Sequence record: OM632664.1 | Length of the DNA: 64,000 nt | Direction: 5' to 3' (one strand) | From: Escherichia phage BEU5 | Shown here: positions 58,479-61,672 of the stretch, piece after piece | How the letters are laid out: each line of letters begins with the position of its first letter | Position numbering within the stretch: the stretch's first letter is position 1 | The notes under the pieces: model-generated | What the model was told of the DNA's origin: nothing | The model's input: the letters and a program-made list of their open reading frames with translations, nothing else | Database searches by the model: none | Program-made: the position numbers and the translations under genes

Positions 58479-59537
58479 ATGGCTAGTATTGATTCTATTG
58501 CCGTATGTAATCCACGGCAGGTACGTAAATTTGTTGAACACTGTATCCGTTCAGGATTGGTTCCATTTATCACTTCATCTCCTGGTATGGGTAAATCTGC
58601 AATTGTTCATCAGATTGCAGAAGACTTTGGCCTGAAACTGATTGACCATCGTCTGTCTACTTCAGCACCAGAAGACCTGTCAGGTCTGCCTCGTTTTAAA
58701 GAAAATGGTCGTGCTGAATTTGCTCCATTTGACGAGCTATTCCCACTGGAAGGGGATACTGTACCTGAAGGATTTAATGGCTGGCTTCTCTTTCTCGATG
58801 AGTTTAACTCTGCTCGTAAAGAGATTCAGGCTGCTGCTTATAAATTGGTACTCGACCGTATGACTGGTCAGAAGAAGCTACATCCTTATGTAGCTATCGT
58901 ATGTGCTGGTAACAAAGCAACTGACCGTGCCATTACTAATAACCTGTCTACAGCTATGCAATCACGTCTTATTCATCTGGAAATGGAGACTGATTTTGAT
59001 GTCTTTATGGAAGATGTAGCTATCCCTAACAAATGGGATGAGCGTGTAATTGCATTCCTGAATGCTAACCCAAATAAACTGAATGATTTTGAACCAGACC
59101 ATCAAGAGAAGACTTTCTGTTGTTCTCGTACATGGGAGTTCGTTAACAAGATTGTTTCCATTCTCCCACCGGGACCGATTGATAGTGAAATGACTCTGCT
59201 ATTAGCAGGCACTATCACCTCTGGTGTAGCAACATCATTCGTCCAGTTTACTCAGGTCTATAGCAACATGGTGTCTTTGAATGAGATTTTGGATAATCCT
59301 AAGAAAGCTCGTATGCCTGAAGACAATAACCTGTTGTGGGCTGTAGTCACTTCACTGATTAACAATACTGACGAAGATAATCATTCGAAAATCTTTGATT
59401 ACGTTGAACGTATGCCATTTACGTTCAAGGTTTTGTACTACCGTTCCGTAGGTAGTCTGGTTCCAGCTTTGGTTAAATTACCGAACTGGCGTGTTGCTGC
59501 AATCACATTATCTAAATACGTTCATGGTTCCAATTAA
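58479..59537 (+). CDS. MoxR-like AAA+ ATPase
   Basis: Walker A SSPGMGKSAIV, Walker B LLFLDEFNSA (MoxR-type DExN), sensor VCAGNKATD. Confidence 0.65.
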   Translation: MASIDSIAVCNPRQVRKFVEHCIRSGLVPFITSSPGMGKSAIVHQIAEDFGLKLIDHRLSTSAPEDLSGLPRFKENGRAEFAPFDELFPLEGDTVPEGFNGWLLFLDEFNSARKEIQAAAYKLVLDRMTGQKKLHPYVAIVCAGNKATDRAITNNLSTAMQSRLIHLEMETDFDVFMEDVAIPNKWDERVIAFLNANPNKLNDFEPDHQEKTFCCSRTWEFVNKIVSILPPGPIDSEMTLLLAGTITSGVATSFVQFTQVYSNMVSLNEILDNPKKARMPEDNNLLWAVVTSLINNTDEDNHSKIFDYVERMPFTFKVLYYRSVGSLVPALVKLPNWRVAAITLSKYVHGSN

Positions 59538-59703
59538 CAAGAAAGGAGTTACAGACCTCCTGTATGTTGCTGGCTTTAACGGTGAAAAAATTACCGTATA
59601 TGCCCCAAGTCTGGCTGCTGCTAAACAAAAGGCAGTTGAATACTTTCGTCCAAAGAAACGTGTAGCCCATACCATTTGGGTTCATCTCGCAGAGGAAAAC
59701 TGA
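59524..59703 (+). CDS. hypothetical small protein
   Basis: Internal Met of track ORF 59491..59703, chosen to limit overlap; no clear RBS. Confidence 0.3.
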   Translation: MVPINKKGVTDLLYVAGFNGEKITVYAPSLAAAKQKAVEYFRPKKRVAHTIWVHLAEEN

Positions 59704-59704
59704 T

Positions 59705-60847
59705 ATGTCCATGACAGATGCTCAATTAACCCGTGAATATGACAGATGTCAGGCTAAAGCCTTTATGGGCAAAACTGCTGCATTCTTTGGTTCACTGTTA
59801 TGTTCTCTGAAGTTCCGTTGGGTAAAAGATGGCTGTGATACAGCACAAACCGATGGTGAGCATCTCGAATGGAATCCTGATTGGTTTGAGAGTCTATTAC
59901 CTGAATCTCGTGTAACAGTACTCATGCATGAACTATGGCATGTCGGCTTACTGCATTCTGTTCGTATGGGTTCTCGTGACCCAGAAGTATGGAATTATGC
60001 CTGTGATATTTATATCAACAATCAGCTTATTCAGGATGGCTACAGCTTTATAGGAATCGAAAATTGCTGGAAAGACTCTAAGTATGCTGGTTGGGCTGAA
60101 GAACAAATCTATGATGACCTCATGAGCAAACAGATACGTCCTCCTAAAGCATCAGGTGCTTTTGGGGCTGGCTCAGGTGGTGACATGAAACCTTCCACTT
60201 CGAAGGCTAGTCAGGTAAATATTGTCAATAATGTAGTAAGAGCCATGCACCAACAGAAACTATCTGGTGGTTCTTTGCCTGGGGTATTACCTGGAAAAAT
60301 GGAAGAAGTTATTACTCAATTCCTGAAACCAGTAGTACCGTGGCAGGTCTTACTTGAACGCTTCTTCAATGACCTGCAAGAAACTTACTACTCATGGCAA
60401 CGGCCTAATCGTAGATACCCTGATATGTACCTACCATCTCCTATGGATGATGACGGTAGACTGGAACATCTGGCTTATTTCCTCGATACATCTGGCTCCA
60501 TTAAACCTAAAGATGCTTTACGCTTTAGCTCTGAAGTGGCCTATGTAAAAGAGAAATACCAGCCTCAGAAGATGACTCTAGTTCAGTTCACTACAGAGAT
60601 TGTAGATGAACAAGTCATTGAAGATGGTGATAAGTTTACTGATGTCACTATCAAAGGACGGGGTGGTACTAGTCTGGTTCCTGTACGTGAGTGGATTATT
60701 AAGCATAAGCCTACTGCTGCCATTATCTTTACTGACTTAGAAGTCAGACCGATGGAGCCATTGCCATTTGACATTCCTGTCATATGGGTAGTTATTCGTA
60801 ACCCTGGTGCACAAGTTCCATTTGGGAAAGTTATTAACATTACATGA
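59705..60847 (+). CDS. VWA-domain protein with N-terminal HExxH metallopeptidase-like motif
   Basis: LMHELWHVGLLH (HExxH) in the N-terminal half; MIDAS-like FLDTSGSI in the C-terminal half; directly downstream of the MoxR-like ATPase. Confidence 0.55.
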   Translation: MSMTDAQLTREYDRCQAKAFMGKTAAFFGSLLCSLKFRWVKDGCDTAQTDGEHLEWNPDWFESLLPESRVTVLMHELWHVGLLHSVRMGSRDPEVWNYACDIYINNQLIQDGYSFIGIENCWKDSKYAGWAEEQIYDDLMSKQIRPPKASGAFGAGSGGDMKPSTSKASQVNIVNNVVRAMHQQKLSGGSLPGVLPGKMEEVITQFLKPVVPWQVLLERFFNDLQETYYSWQRPNRRYPDMYLPSPMDDDGRLEHLAYFLDTSGSIKPKDALRFSSEVAYVKEKYQPQKMTLVQFTTEIVDEQVIEDGDKFTDVTIKGRGGTSLVPVREWIIKHKPTAAIIFTDLEVRPMEPLPFDIPVIWVVIRNPGAQVPFGKVINIT

Positions 60848-60853
60848 GGTTTT

Positions 60854-61360
60854 ATGGTTGTTAATGGAAAACTATTGTTAGGTGCTATACCCATTAAGGG
60901 CATGGTTAACAGTAAACTCAGTTCAGGTGAGACTACATTTGGACTGGGAGAAGCTGGTTATGACATCCGTATTAAACAGGATGTTACCTTCTACCGATTT
61001 CTTGGTTTGATTCCCTGCATCAAGATTAAGGATGAAGGAAAGACCAAGTGGAAGTTTGGCACTTTCACATTAGCTTCTGCAATGGAACGTTTCAATGTAC
61101 CTGCTGGCCTAGTGGGTATTGTCCATGACAAATCTACATGGGCAAGGCGTACATTATCTGTATTTAATACCGTTATTGAACCAGGATGGTCAGGCTATCT
61201 GACTTTAGAACTGGTTTATCACGGTCGTAAAAAACTTCATATCCCTGCTGGTTCAGGTATTGCTCAGGTCATCTTCCATGAGACAGTAGAGAATACTACC
61301 TACAATGGACGATACCAGAACCAGCCTAATCAACCTGTAGCTGCTAAGTCAGCTCGTTAA
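60854..61360 (+). CDS. dcd: dCTP deaminase (dUTPase-fold)
   Basis: GLVGIVHDKSTWARRTLSVFNTVIEPGWSGYLTLELV and IPAGSGIAQVIFHE match dCTP deaminase signatures. Confidence 0.65.
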   Translation: MVVNGKLLLGAIPIKGMVNSKLSSGETTFGLGEAGYDIRIKQDVTFYRFLGLIPCIKIKDEGKTKWKFGTFTLASAMERFNVPAGLVGIVHDKSTWARRTLSVFNTVIEPGWSGYLTLELVYHGRKKLHIPAGSGIAQVIFHETVENTTYNGRYQNQPNQPVAAKSAR

Positions 61361-61373
61361 TTAAGGAAATATC

Positions 61374-61574
61374 ATGTCTATCTTTACTACTAAGGTTAAT
61401 GGTCAGAAAGTTACTGTTGTTGCTCGTAACGTAGCTTACGTTACTGAAAACAGTGAAGGCCGTGGTGTAATTACTTTTACTAACGGTGATTCCATTGATA
61501 CCCAGGTAGGTTATGACTCTATCCGTCGTAACGTAGCTAAAGCACTTGATGGTGCTAAAGACATCGCAGAGTAA
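61374..61574 (+). CDS. hypothetical protein
   Basis: 66-aa ORF; TTAATTAAGGAAAT upstream. Confidence 0.45.
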   Translation: MSIFTTKVNGQKVTVVARNVAYVTENSEGRGVITFTNGDSIDTQVGYDSIRRNVAKALDGAKDIAE

Positions 61575-61649
61575 GGTGTTTACAGTAATGGGGCTATATA
61601 GTAGCCCCATTTATGGAAATTCCTTTCTCCATTGCTTAGTCCCAACTAT

Positions 61650-61672
61650 GCCCACTTTATGTGGGCTTTTTT
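61650..61672 (+). terminator. rho-independent terminator
   Basis: Stem GCCCAC/GTGGGC with loop TTTAT, then TTTTTT. Confidence 0.75.

What the first reader, a model, noticed from the sequence alone, without database searches (positions are those of the whole stretch)
58479..60847. MoxR-type AAA+ ATPase paired with a VWA protein carrying an HExxH motif
MoxR and VWA proteins are classic functional partners, with the ATPase acting on the VWA protein via its MIDAS site. Here the VWA protein also has a metallopeptidase-like HExxH segment, and a small ORF separates the pair. This could be a chaperone/maturation or conflict-type module.
Basis: partly seen in the sequence, partly recalled or inferred. 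Interest (0 to 1): 0.55.

Follow-up and report, generated by a model that had tools for sequence, protein, structure and literature searches.

The report
Phage N4 gp24–gp25: ATPase plus zincin-VWA pair
This is the already catalogued gp24/gp25 gene pair of coliphage N4, a MoxR/midasin-like AAA+ ATPase next to a protein that fuses a zinc-peptidase-like domain to a VWA domain; it is real and strongly conserved, its architecture is already described, and its function has never been tested.

Summary
The window is an Enquatrovirus, 97.9% identical to phage N4 over this stretch. The ORFs are N4 gp24 (58479-59537), an unannotated 59-aa gene (59524-59703) and gp25 (59705-60847).

gp25 matches Pfam DUF2201_N ("putative metallopeptidase", 2.6e-86) and DUF2201 (VWA-like, 1.4e-46). 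HExxHx4H, WNxACDxxIN and a complete MIDAS (DxSxS…T…D) are invariant or nearly so from phages to bacteria.

gp24 is an intact AAA+ ATPase. A family profile hits midasin AAA modules (7e-36), NorQ and CbbQ, so "MoxR-type" holds at clade level.

The two genes are adjacent in every informative phage locus and in about 66 of 80 bacterial loci. The bacterial copies sit among conjugative-element or prophage genes, often with a DUF3150-like third gene. The small ORF is real but is a lineage-variable insert.

None of this is new. gp24 and gp25 are listed core genes of N4-like phages, and Iyer et al. 2021 described the same MoxR plus metallopeptidase-vWA pair in jumbo phages.

Most likely this is an ATP-driven, MIDAS-targeted protein remodelling and cleavage machine. 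Middle-operon placement and presence in capsid-less conjugative elements argue against a virion-only role. The substrate is unknown.

The parts
58479..59537 (+). gp24: AAA+ ATPase of the MoxR/AAA_5/midasin-like clade (352 aa)
   Evidence: ORF. PHROG 1297 'ATPase', E 1.3e-136. 99-100% identical to N4 gp24. A phage plus bacterial family profile hits midasin AAA modules at E 7e-36, NorQ at 1.8e-6 and CbbQ at 1.5e-5. Family members match Pfam AAA_5 (25/30), AAA_3 (9/30) and bpMoxR (4/30).
58578..58598 (+). gp24 Walker A / P-loop (S34-P-G-M-G-K-S40)
   Evidence: G38, K39 and S40 are invariant in 53 phage homologues. G38 and K39 are invariant across phage and bacterial homologues.
58797..58802 (+). 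gp24 Walker B (D107-E108, in LFLDEFNSA)
   Evidence: D107 and E108 are invariant in phage homologues. D107 is invariant across all 30 sequences of A3. The segment aligns with the DELN Walker B of midasin.
58911..59129 (+). gp24 sensor-1 N145, putative arginine finger R163 and sensor-2 R217
   Evidence: N145, R163 and R217 are invariant across phage and bacterial homologues. The functional assignment is by position relative to the midasin and MoxR alignments and is an inference.
59524..59703 (+). Small gene (59 aa from ATG 59524; 70 aa if GTG 59491). It is not annotated in the N4 reference genome.
   Evidence: ORF. PHROG 19202, E 1.5e-33. Annotated in phages AL25 and PMBT57 but not in NC_008720. 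Homologues of 33-63% identity lie between the gp24 and gp25 homologues in about 16 of 78 phage loci. No Pfam, NCBIfam or PADLOC assignment.
59705..60847 (+). gp25: zincin-like N-terminal domain fused to a C-terminal VWA/MIDAS domain (380 aa)
   Evidence: Pfam DUF2201_N at 2.6e-86 and DUF2201 at 1.4e-46. AlphaFold2 model built on 69 homologues has mean pLDDT 82.8. 99% identical to N4 gp25.
59927..59956 (+). gp25 HExxHxxxxH motif (H75 E76 L W H79 V G L L H84), on predicted helix 66-81
   Evidence: Invariant in 69 phage homologues. H75 and H79 are invariant and E76 and H84 are >=90% conserved once bacterial homologues are included. The motif aligns with the catalytic HExxH of HtpX (hhalign 86%, E 5e-6), SprT (67%, E 5e-5; the third His also aligns) and the minigluzincin MJ1213.
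59990..60019 (+). gp25 WNxACDxxIN motif (W96-N105), on the helix after the HExxH helix. D101 is a possible further metal ligand.
   Evidence: A99, D101, I104 and N105 are invariant and W96 and N97 are >=90% conserved across phages and bacteria. In homologues P0244 and P0249 an intein is inserted exactly between A99 and C100.
60485..60736 (+). gp25 MIDAS residues: D261-x-S263-x-S265, T322 and D344
57640..61666 (+). Transcription unit holding the pair: terminator-like hairpins at 57640-57662 and 61650-61666 bracket gp21, gp22 (HNH), gp23, gp24, the small ORF, gp25, gp26 (dCTP deaminase) and gp27
   Evidence: Terminator scan. Gene content. N4 gp24 and gp25 are described as middle transcripts in PMC4193335.

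Best explanation
The region encodes phage N4's conserved two-protein machine.

gp24 is a MoxR/midasin-like AAA+ ATPase. It presumably forms a hexameric ring whose conserved loop (P64-x-D66-L-x-G69-L-P71) faces the pore.

gp25 is its adaptor and effector. Its C-terminal VWA domain uses a complete MIDAS metal site to grip an acidic residue, either of a substrate protein or of the ATPase. Its N-terminal SprT/M48-like zincin domain (HExxHx4H plus an invariant Asp) cleaves that substrate.

The proposed cycle is as follows. MIDAS-dependent capture comes first. ATP-driven pulling or remodelling by the gp24 ring follows. Zinc-dependent cleavage then takes place.

The genes are expressed in the middle phase, in one operon with nucleotide-metabolism genes. 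The most likely substrate is therefore a cytoplasmic protein, host-encoded or bound to the incoming or replicating DNA, rather than a virion component.

Shown here: the domain identities, the conservation of the catalytic and MIDAS residues, the gene linkage and the genomic contexts.

Inferred: the physical interaction, the proteolytic activity, the order of events and the nature of the substrate.

For: Zincin relationship. All ten best PDB profile hits of the N-domain are zincins: MJ1213, HtpX, an M48 peptidase and BepA. Each aligns across the strand plus the HExxH helix. hhalign gives 86% to HtpX and 67% to SprT, with the third His aligned. Bacterial homologues give weak SprT and LoiP hits in NCBIfam.

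ATPase. Walker A, Walker B, sensor and Arg residues are intact. The family profile hits midasin at E 7e-36 (best single domain 5e-12), NorQ and CbbQ.

Linkage. A gp24 homologue lies upstream on the same strand in all 78 phage loci that have upstream sequence and in about 66 of 80 bacterial loci. It is also present in the jumbo phages BF and Deifobo.

Importance. Both genes are among the 14 core genes of N4-like phages (PMC4193335). The family has 21,976 representatives at 50% identity. Inteins sit in the invariant WNxA|CD motif.

Non-virion context. The genes lie in the middle operon with dCTP deaminase. Bacterial homologues sit among TraM, TraN, RadC, ParB, ThiF/PRTRC, a VirB11-like ATPase, a DUF3854 primase, Rad52, RecT and RNase H.
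Against: There is no experimental evidence for ATPase activity, proteolysis, zinc binding or a gp24-gp25 interaction.

The N-domain fold could not be tested by structure search, because VWA hits filled the result lists. Its links to zincins are individually weak (E 0.05-0.3 against the PDB; hhalign 67-86%).

gp24 alone is below the Pfam thresholds.

One bacterial homologue, from Desulfobacter (L008), has HTxxH. Catalysis is therefore not universally retained.

The DUF3150-like third component common in bacteria is absent from the phage, so the bacterial context may not transfer.

In Serratia phage BF the pair lies next to genes annotated as structural.

The neighbourhood census found no single recurrent functional neighbour.
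Confidence: 0.5

Rival explanations
1. Virion assembly and maturation chaperone-protease. The MoxR-vWA pair helps to fold or assemble a virion structure, and the fused peptidase trims structural proteins. This was proposed for the same architecture in group 2.2 jumbo phages, by analogy with the MoxR/VWA proteins p618 and p892 of Acidianus two-tailed virus.
For: The proposal is published in PMC7824862. ATV ORF892 is recovered as a VWA structural relative (rank 42). In Serratia phage BF the pair lies beside genes annotated as structural proteins. The window and N4 annotations seen here list no dedicated prohead protease (and my own knowledge; not checked systematically).
Against: In N4 the genes sit in the middle operon with dCTP deaminase, on the strand and in the region of the replication genes, not among the late structural genes (PMC4193335). 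The gp24/gp25 homologues were not among the virion proteins found by mass spectrometry in N4-like roseophages (PMC4193335 Table 4). The same module is frequent in conjugative elements, which make no capsids.
Confidence: 0.2
2. Dedicated counter-defence effector. The module recognises and destroys a host immunity or restriction protein, much as the metalloprotease domain of ArdC helps conjugative plasmids to overcome restriction.
For: The module is shared by virulent phages and conjugative elements, that is, by invading DNA. It sits near RadC, ParB, PRTRC and methyltransferase genes, which are typical of establishment regions. The zincin domain resembles SprT. The ArdC parallel is from my own knowledge.
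Against: Counter-defence genes are usually accessory and fast-evolving. This pair is a universal, well-conserved core gene set across N4-like phages of very different hosts (PMC4193335). There are no PADLOC or anti-defence family matches. No host-specific pattern was seen.
Confidence: 0.15
3. Metal-cofactor insertion or enzyme activation rather than proteolysis, as in NorQ-NorD, CbbQ-CbbO, CoxD-CoxE or the CobS-CobT and BchI-BchD chelatases. On this reading the His-rich HExxH segment serves as a metal-handling site for maturing a phage or host metalloenzyme.
For: The nearest solved MoxR-type relatives after midasin are NorQ and CbbQ. NorD and BchD appear among the VWA structural matches. gp24 gives a weak hit to PHROG 249, the CobS-like 'porphyrin biosynthesis' family. 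The neighbours include nucleotide-metabolism enzymes.
Against: The invariant Glu of HExxH, the strand-helix context and the similarities to M48 and SprT point to a hydrolytic zincin. No candidate client metalloenzyme is consistently linked to the pair in phages or bacteria.
Confidence: 0.08

Closest known systems
MoxR AAA+ ATPase plus metallopeptidase-vWA pair of group 2.2 jumbo phages (Iyer, Anantharaman, Krishnan, Burroughs & Aravind 2021, Viruses 13:63; PMC7824862)
   Same: The architecture is the same: a MoxR-like ATPase gene next to a gene for an N-terminal metallopeptidase domain fused to vWA. Jumbo-phage proteins match the profiles built here. For Serratia phage BF the ATPase scores E 4.5e-55 and the zincin-VWA protein 5.8e-79. 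For Deifobo the zincin-VWA protein scores 2.2e-97.
   Different: Here the pair is in a 70-kb podovirus (Schitoviridae), where it is a core gene pair of the middle operon. The published functional proposal (virion assembly) is not supported by the N4 and conjugative-element context. I did not check that the exact accessions cited in that paper (ASV44729.1, ASV44728.2) belong to this family.
Cellular MoxR-VWA systems: NorQ-NorD, CbbQ-CbbO, RavA-ViaA, CoxD-CoxE
   Different: Those partners have no peptidase domain and act in cofactor insertion or enzyme reactivation. gp24 does not reach the thresholds of the Pfam MoxR (AAA_3) or CbbQ-type models.
Midasin / Rea1 (Mdn1)
   Different: Midasin is a single 5,000-residue eukaryotic polypeptide with six fused AAA modules. 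It removes ribosome assembly factors and has no protease.
Acidianus two-tailed virus p618 (MoxR-type ATPase) and p892 (VWA protein)
   Same: This is the only virus-encoded MoxR/VWA pair with experimental data, as cited in PMC7824862. ORF892 shares the VWA fold.
   Different: It is an archaeal virus and has no peptidase domain. Its role is in extracellular tail growth, and its sequences are not detectably related beyond the VWA fold.
SprT/Wss1/SPRTN-type zincins working with the AAA+ ATPase Cdc48/p97, and the ArdC metalloprotease domain of conjugative plasmids
   Same: These are small zincins with HExxH followed by a third His 4-5 residues on. The third His of E. coli SprT aligns with H84. They show the same logic of an AAA+ unfoldase plus a metalloprotease acting on protein obstacles, and ArdC also occurs on mobile DNA (my own knowledge).
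   Different: Similarity is weak (hhalign 67%), and the M48/HtpX match is at least as good (86%). No DNA-binding domain was identified in gp25. Any relationship to DNA-protein crosslink repair is speculation.

Membership tests
Pfam DUF2201_N + DUF2201 two-domain family (COG3864-type 'predicted metal-dependent peptidase') | Significant match to both Pfam models, above their gathering scores and in N-to-C order | tested here: met
   PF13203 scores 290 bits (cut-off 23.2) over residues 10-245. PF09967 scores 158 bits (cut-off 26.4) over residues 256-380.
VWA / MIDAS domain | Rossmann-like VWA fold | tested here: met
VWA / MIDAS domain | Complete MIDAS motif: DxSxS, a downstream Thr and a downstream Asp | tested here: met
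   D261, S263, S265, T322 and D344 are invariant in 69 phage homologues and in 27 phage plus bacterial homologues.
Zincin metallopeptidases (HExxH; Pfam clan Peptidase_MA) | HExxH on a helix, with both His and the catalytic Glu conserved | tested here: met
   H75 and H79 are invariant and E76 is >=90% conserved. The motif lies in predicted helix 66-81.
Zincin metallopeptidases (HExxH; Pfam clan Peptidase_MA) | A third zinc ligand | tested here: inconclusive
   The candidates are H84 (>=90% conserved; Asp in Mesorhizobium locus L003; aligns with the third His of SprT) and the invariant D101.
Zincin metallopeptidases (HExxH; Pfam clan Peptidase_MA) | Zincin fold: a beta-sheet with an edge strand above the active-site helix | tested here: inconclusive
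   The predicted topology is helix-helix-strand-strand-strand-helix-HExxH helix-helix, which fits. The profile hits only zincins, but weakly (E 0.05-0.3). hhalign gives 86% to HtpX and 67% to SprT. Fold searches of the whole model returned only VWA matches.
Zincin metallopeptidases (HExxH; Pfam clan Peptidase_MA) | Zinc-dependent peptide-bond hydrolysis | not testable with these tools
   This needs biochemistry.
MoxR-type AAA+ ATPases (AAA_3/AAA_5/CbbQ-NorQ clade) | Intact AAA+ motifs: Walker A, Walker B, sensor 1, Arg finger, sensor 2 | tested here: met
   G38-K39-S40, D107-E108, N145, R163 and R217 are conserved. The motif roles are assigned by alignment and are an inference.
MoxR-type AAA+ ATPases (AAA_3/AAA_5/CbbQ-NorQ clade) | Match to curated MoxR-clade models above threshold | tested here: not met
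   The window protein scores AAA_5 19.3 bits against a cut-off of 22, and gives no AAA_3 or bpMoxR hit. NCBIfam gives no hit. Relatives do match at E<0.01: AAA_5 25/30, AAA_3 9/30, bpMoxR 4/30.
MoxR-type AAA+ ATPases (AAA_3/AAA_5/CbbQ-NorQ clade) | Closest characterised relatives belong to the helix-2-insert clade (midasin/dynein-related, MoxR, NtrC) | tested here: met
   The family profile hits midasin at 7e-36, NorQ at 1.8e-6, NtrC1 at 3.9e-6 and CbbQ at 1.5e-5. The conserved P-x-DL-x-GLP segment aligns with the corresponding midasin segment.
MoxR-type AAA+ ATPases (AAA_3/AAA_5/CbbQ-NorQ clade) | Genomic pairing with a VWA-domain gene | tested here: met
   78 of 78 informative phage loci and about 66 of 80 bacterial loci show the pairing.
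MoxR-type AAA+ ATPases (AAA_3/AAA_5/CbbQ-NorQ clade) | Hexameric ring, and physical binding of the VWA partner | not testable with these tools
VMAP / beta-propeller MoxR-vWA ternary conflict systems (Kaur et al. 2020, PMC7159879) | A third VMAP or beta-propeller component and effector domains in the effector position | tested here: not met
   No such gene lies in the window operon. Only 4 of 30 family ATPases touch the bpMoxR model weakly. The third gene in bacterial relatives is DUF3150-like, not VMAP.
HNH endonuclease (RefSeq and PHROG 1314 label for gp25) | An HNH/His-Me finger domain | tested here: not met
   Pfam finds only DUF2201_N and DUF2201 in gp25. The label in NC_008720 and many other records follows the PHROG 1314 name and looks like a propagated misannotation.

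The most novel reading that the evidence does not exclude
The AAA+ plus zincin-VWA module (with a DUF3150-like third protein in cellular versions) may be a general 'invading-DNA' tool shared by virulent phages and conjugative elements. On this reading it is an ATP-driven segregase-protease that strips or destroys proteins blocking the establishment or replication of the incoming DNA. Those proteins could be DNA-bound host proteins, covalent protein-DNA adducts or defence factors. It would be a prokaryotic mobile-element analogue of the Wss1/SPRTN-Cdc48/p97 system, not a virion-assembly chaperone.
Probability: 0.25. Interest if true: 0.7.

Novelty: already known. Interest (0 to 1): 0.3.

Why it matters
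gp24 and gp25 are two of only 14 genes shared by all N4-like phages, and they are among the few of those without an assigned function. Their family is large: about 22,000 clusters at 50% identity, spanning many phage groups and conjugative elements. Finding the substrate of this ATPase-protease pair would fill a real gap in the biology of N4, a classic model phage. It could also reveal a common requirement of mobile DNA. As a sequence observation, however, nothing here is new. The genes, their domains and their pairing are already in the databases and in the literature.

Tried and rejected
- Single-sequence AlphaFold2 of gp25 gave an unusable model (pLDDT 34). It was repeated with 69 homologues (pLDDT 82.8).
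- Single-sequence phmmer of gp24 and gp25 against the PDB gave only noise. The phage-only gp25 profile found nothing. The phage-only gp24 profile gave just a marginal midasin hit (E 0.0055). Adding bacterial homologues was needed to reach significance.
- NCBIfam and PADLOC gave no meaningful hits for any of the three proteins.
- I tested whether the phage has a DUF3150-like partner like the bacterial triads. An HMM built from 37 bacterial proteins found nothing in the 64-kb window or in 80 phage loci.
- I tested whether the small ORF is a conserved third component. This was rejected: it is present in only about 16 of 78 loci, and the slot is variable.
- A census of 150 neighbouring ORFs from bacterial loci found mobile-element genes but no recurrent functional partner beyond the ATPase and DUF3150.
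- Literature searches for DUF2201, COG3864, DUF3150, N4 gp24/gp25 and Schitoviridae plus metallopeptidase found no functional study.
- The RefSeq label 'HNH endonuclease' for gp25 was considered and rejected.
Full report
**Identity of the region.** The window is a phage N4-type genome. The stretch 58279-61360 is 100% identical to Escherichia phages BEU13, BEU42, BEU44 and BEU51, and 97.9% identical to phage N4. In the N4 reference the two large ORFs of the finding are gp24 ('ATPase') and gp25. The depositors noted there that the two are similar to two Streptomyces coelicolor proteins, so a cellular counterpart of the pair was already recognised. The ORFs lie exactly at the stated coordinates: 58479-59537 (352 aa) and 59705-60847 (380 aa).

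**The small ORF.** Between the two lies a small ORF. From ATG 59524 it encodes 59 aa. It overlaps the end of gp24 by 14 nt and stops 1 nt before the gp25 start codon. It matches PHROG 19202 (E 1.5e-33). It is annotated in phages AL25 and PMBT57 but not in the N4 reference.

**The operon.** Terminator-like hairpins at 57640-57662 and 61650-61666 bracket one co-directional gene block. The block holds gp21, gp22 (an HNH endonuclease), gp23, gp24, the small ORF, gp25, gp26 (dCTP deaminase) and gp27. N4 gp24 and gp25 are described as middle transcripts (PMC4193335).

**gp25 domains and motifs.** Pfam assigns residues 10-245 to DUF2201_N, 'putative metallopeptidase domain' (E 2.6e-86), and residues 256-380 to DUF2201, 'VWA-like domain' (E 1.4e-46).
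- In 69 phage homologues of 51-85% identity the invariant residues include H75, E76, H79 and H84 (HExxHx4H), N97, A99 and D101, and the full MIDAS set D261, S263, S265, T322 and D344.
- When bacterial homologues of 26-32% identity are added, H75, H79, R87, A99, D101, I104, N105 and all five MIDAS residues stay invariant, and E76, H84, W96 and N97 stay at 90% or more.

**Is the HExxH in a peptidase-like setting?** The indirect evidence agrees that it is.
- The predicted topology is helix-helix-three strands-helix-HExxH helix-helix.
- A profile of the N-domain core hits only zincins among solved structures. These are the minigluzincin MJ1213, HtpX, an M48 peptidase and BepA. All are aligned through the strand and the HExxH helix, though only at E 0.05-0.3.
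- hhalign against E. coli HtpX gives 86% probability.
- hhalign against E. coli SprT gives 67%, with the third His of SprT aligned to H84.
- Bacterial homologues give weak SprT and LoiP hits in NCBIfam.

I therefore regard the HExxH as sitting in a zincin-like domain. The third ligand (H84 or D101) and the activity itself remain unproven.

**gp24.** Alone it gives only sub-threshold Pfam hits: AAA_5 19.3 bits against 22, and AAA 19.6 against 21.2. NCBIfam gives none. The AAA+ motifs are intact and conserved: Walker A S34-PGMGKS-40, Walker B D107-E108, N145, R163 and R217. A profile of 30 phage and bacterial family members hits the AAA modules of midasin/Rea1 at E 7e-36 (best single module 5e-12). 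It then hits NorQ (1.8e-6), NtrC1 (3.9e-6) and CbbQ (1.5e-5). Scanned one by one, 25 of 30 members match AAA_5, 9 match AAA_3 (the MoxR model) and 4 match bpMoxR. 'MoxR-type' is thus justified at the level of the clade (MoxR, CbbQ/NorQ, midasin/dynein-related), not as membership of a curated MoxR family.

**Linkage in phages.** In 80 related viral contigs, every one of the 78 with sequence upstream of the gp25 homologue has a gp24 homologue upstream on the same strand. In many the two genes are 11-90 nt apart with nothing between. Others hold one or more small ORFs. Clustering shows that the family of the window's small ORF is the commonest occupant (11 clustered, about 16 by tblastn). Most other occupants are singletons. 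The small ORF is therefore a real gene, but it is a lineage-variable insert and not a defining third component.

**Spread among other phages.** gp25 homologues occur in 683 of 50,697 phage records. Beyond N4-like phages these include jumbo phages (Serratia BF, Pseudomonas Deifobo, Escherichia fEgEco12, Enterobacter SonariX), rV5-like phages and Campylobacter phages. BF and Deifobo also have the ATPase nearby. No ATPase of this family was detected within 3.5 kb of the gp25 homologue of the rV5-like phage V18. Structure search of viral models finds full-length relatives in Pseudomonas phage Zuri, cyanophage S-TIM5, Bacillus phage PBS1 and others. Across 1.84 billion representative proteins the family has 21,976 members at E<=1e-3 and 5,402 at E<=1e-30.

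**Bacterial relatives.** About 66 of 80 bacterial loci carry a gp24 homologue upstream on the same strand. It is either adjacent or separated by a protein of about 280-390 aa. Several of these intervening proteins match DUF3150 weakly. In Bacteroidota the DUF3150-like gene lies downstream instead, and in Pseudovibrio it lies upstream. No such protein is encoded in the window or in the phage loci.

The neighbourhoods are those of mobile elements:
- TraM, TraN (DUF4138), a RadC-like JAB protein and ParB in Chitinophaga
- ThiF, PRTRC protein E, RNase H and Sipho_Gp157 in Terriglobus
- a VirB11-like ATPase, a DUF3854/CHC2 primase, Rad52, a helicase and a deoxynucleotidase elsewhere
- RecT, recombination directionality factors, UvrD, AbiEii and methyltransferases in a census of 150 neighbouring ORFs, with no single recurrent partner

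**What is already known.** gp24 ('unknown' or 'putative AAA ATPase') and gp25 ('vWFA domain', 'pfam13203 putative metallopeptidase') are listed among the 14 core genes of N4-like phages. They appear in several genome papers (PMC4193335, PMC2784036, PMC6992544, PMC11934525).

Iyer et al. [quoted passage not shown] They propose a role in virion assembly with proteolytic processing, by analogy with Acidianus two-tailed virus.

I found no experimental study of the N4 proteins or of the family. The finding is therefore an already known gene pair and an already described architecture, with an unknown function.

**Mechanism.**
- *Shown:* domain identities, conserved catalytic, MIDAS and ATPase residues, tight gene linkage, middle-operon placement, and presence in phages and conjugative elements.
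- *Inferred from established knowledge of MoxR-VWA systems and midasin:* the VWA MIDAS binds an acidic residue of a client, and the AAA+ ring supplies mechanical work.
- *Inferred from the zincin features:* the client is cleaved.

My best reading is an ATP-driven, MIDAS-targeted remodelling and cleavage machine acting in the cytoplasm during the replication phase. The published virion-assembly idea remains possible. It fits poorly with the operon position in N4, with the absence of the homologues from roseophage virion proteomes (PMC4193335), and with the module's frequency in conjugative elements, which build no capsids. A dedicated counter-defence role is hard to square with the pair being a universal, well-conserved core gene set. 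A cofactor-insertion role like NorQD or CbbQO is hard to square with the conserved catalytic Glu and the M48/SprT-like context. The substrate is unknown.

**Verdict.** In novelty terms this is already known. Interest is modest (0.3) and comes from the fact that a core gene pair of a classic phage still lacks a function.

Noticed in passing
P0244 and P0249 (homologues of window 59705-60847); insertion point corresponds to window 60001/60002, between A99 and C100 of gp25: Some gp25 homologues carry an intein inserted exactly in the invariant WNxA|CDxxIN motif. The junctions read ...WNDA|CISGES...VVHN|CDYVINN and ...WNFA|CVAKGT...VVHN|CDIRINN, and Pfam finds Hint, Vint and Intein_splicing hits. 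Inteins usually sit in critical sites of important proteins. Intein-borne endonucleases might also explain the 'HNH endonuclease' label of PHROG 1314; I did not test that idea.
   Followed up: partly
window 59705-60847 (N4 gp25; NC_008720 11164-12306): RefSeq N4 and many other phage records annotate this protein as 'HNH endonuclease' or 'homing endonuclease', following the PHROG 1314 label. Pfam finds only the metallopeptidase-like and VWA-like domains. This looks like a widely propagated misannotation.
   Followed up: yes
window 59524-59703: A conserved 59-aa gene (PHROG 19202) lies between gp24 and gp25 and is missing from the N4 reference annotation. It has no assignable domain. Homologues sit in the same slot in distant N4-like phages.
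   Followed up: partly
L010, L011, L015, L019, L021, L023, L024, L052, L057 (between the pair); L025, L054 (downstream); L005 (upstream): Bacterial versions of the module usually include a third protein of about 280-390 aa. Several of these match DUF3150 weakly. It is absent from the phage versions. Its function is unknown, and no literature on it was found.
   Followed up: partly
L003 (Mesorhizobium yinganensis NZ_JBEBMH010000002.1, 434974-448110 of a 727-kb contig): A bacterial chromosomal contig carries N4-like gp24, gp25, dCTP deaminase (gp26) and a gp30-like ThyX gene in N4 order, at 36-54% identity. This may be an integrated N4-like element or a remnant, which would be unusual for a phage group regarded as strictly lytic.
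   Followed up: partly
window 60176-60187 (gp25 residues 158-161, G-G-D-M) within the low-confidence linker, residues ~145-165: A short G-[DE]-hydrophobic motif is conserved inside an otherwise variable, Gly/Pro/acidic and probably disordered linker. D160 is >=90% conserved in phage homologues, and the motif aligns with GEVRD and GDVxD in bacteria. It could be an internal acidic ligand for the MIDAS or the zinc site (autoinhibition). That idea is pure speculation.
   Followed up: no
L008:5956-7230 (Desulfobacter vibrioformis): This homologue has HTVMH instead of HExxH, so the catalytic Glu is lost, while its MIDAS is intact. Some family members may therefore act without proteolysis.
   Followed up: no
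window 57922-58278: An HNH endonuclease gene (Pfam HNH_3, E 8.6e-20; N4 gp22) lies in the same operon, two genes upstream of gp24. It is a genuine HNH protein, unlike gp25.
   Followed up: no
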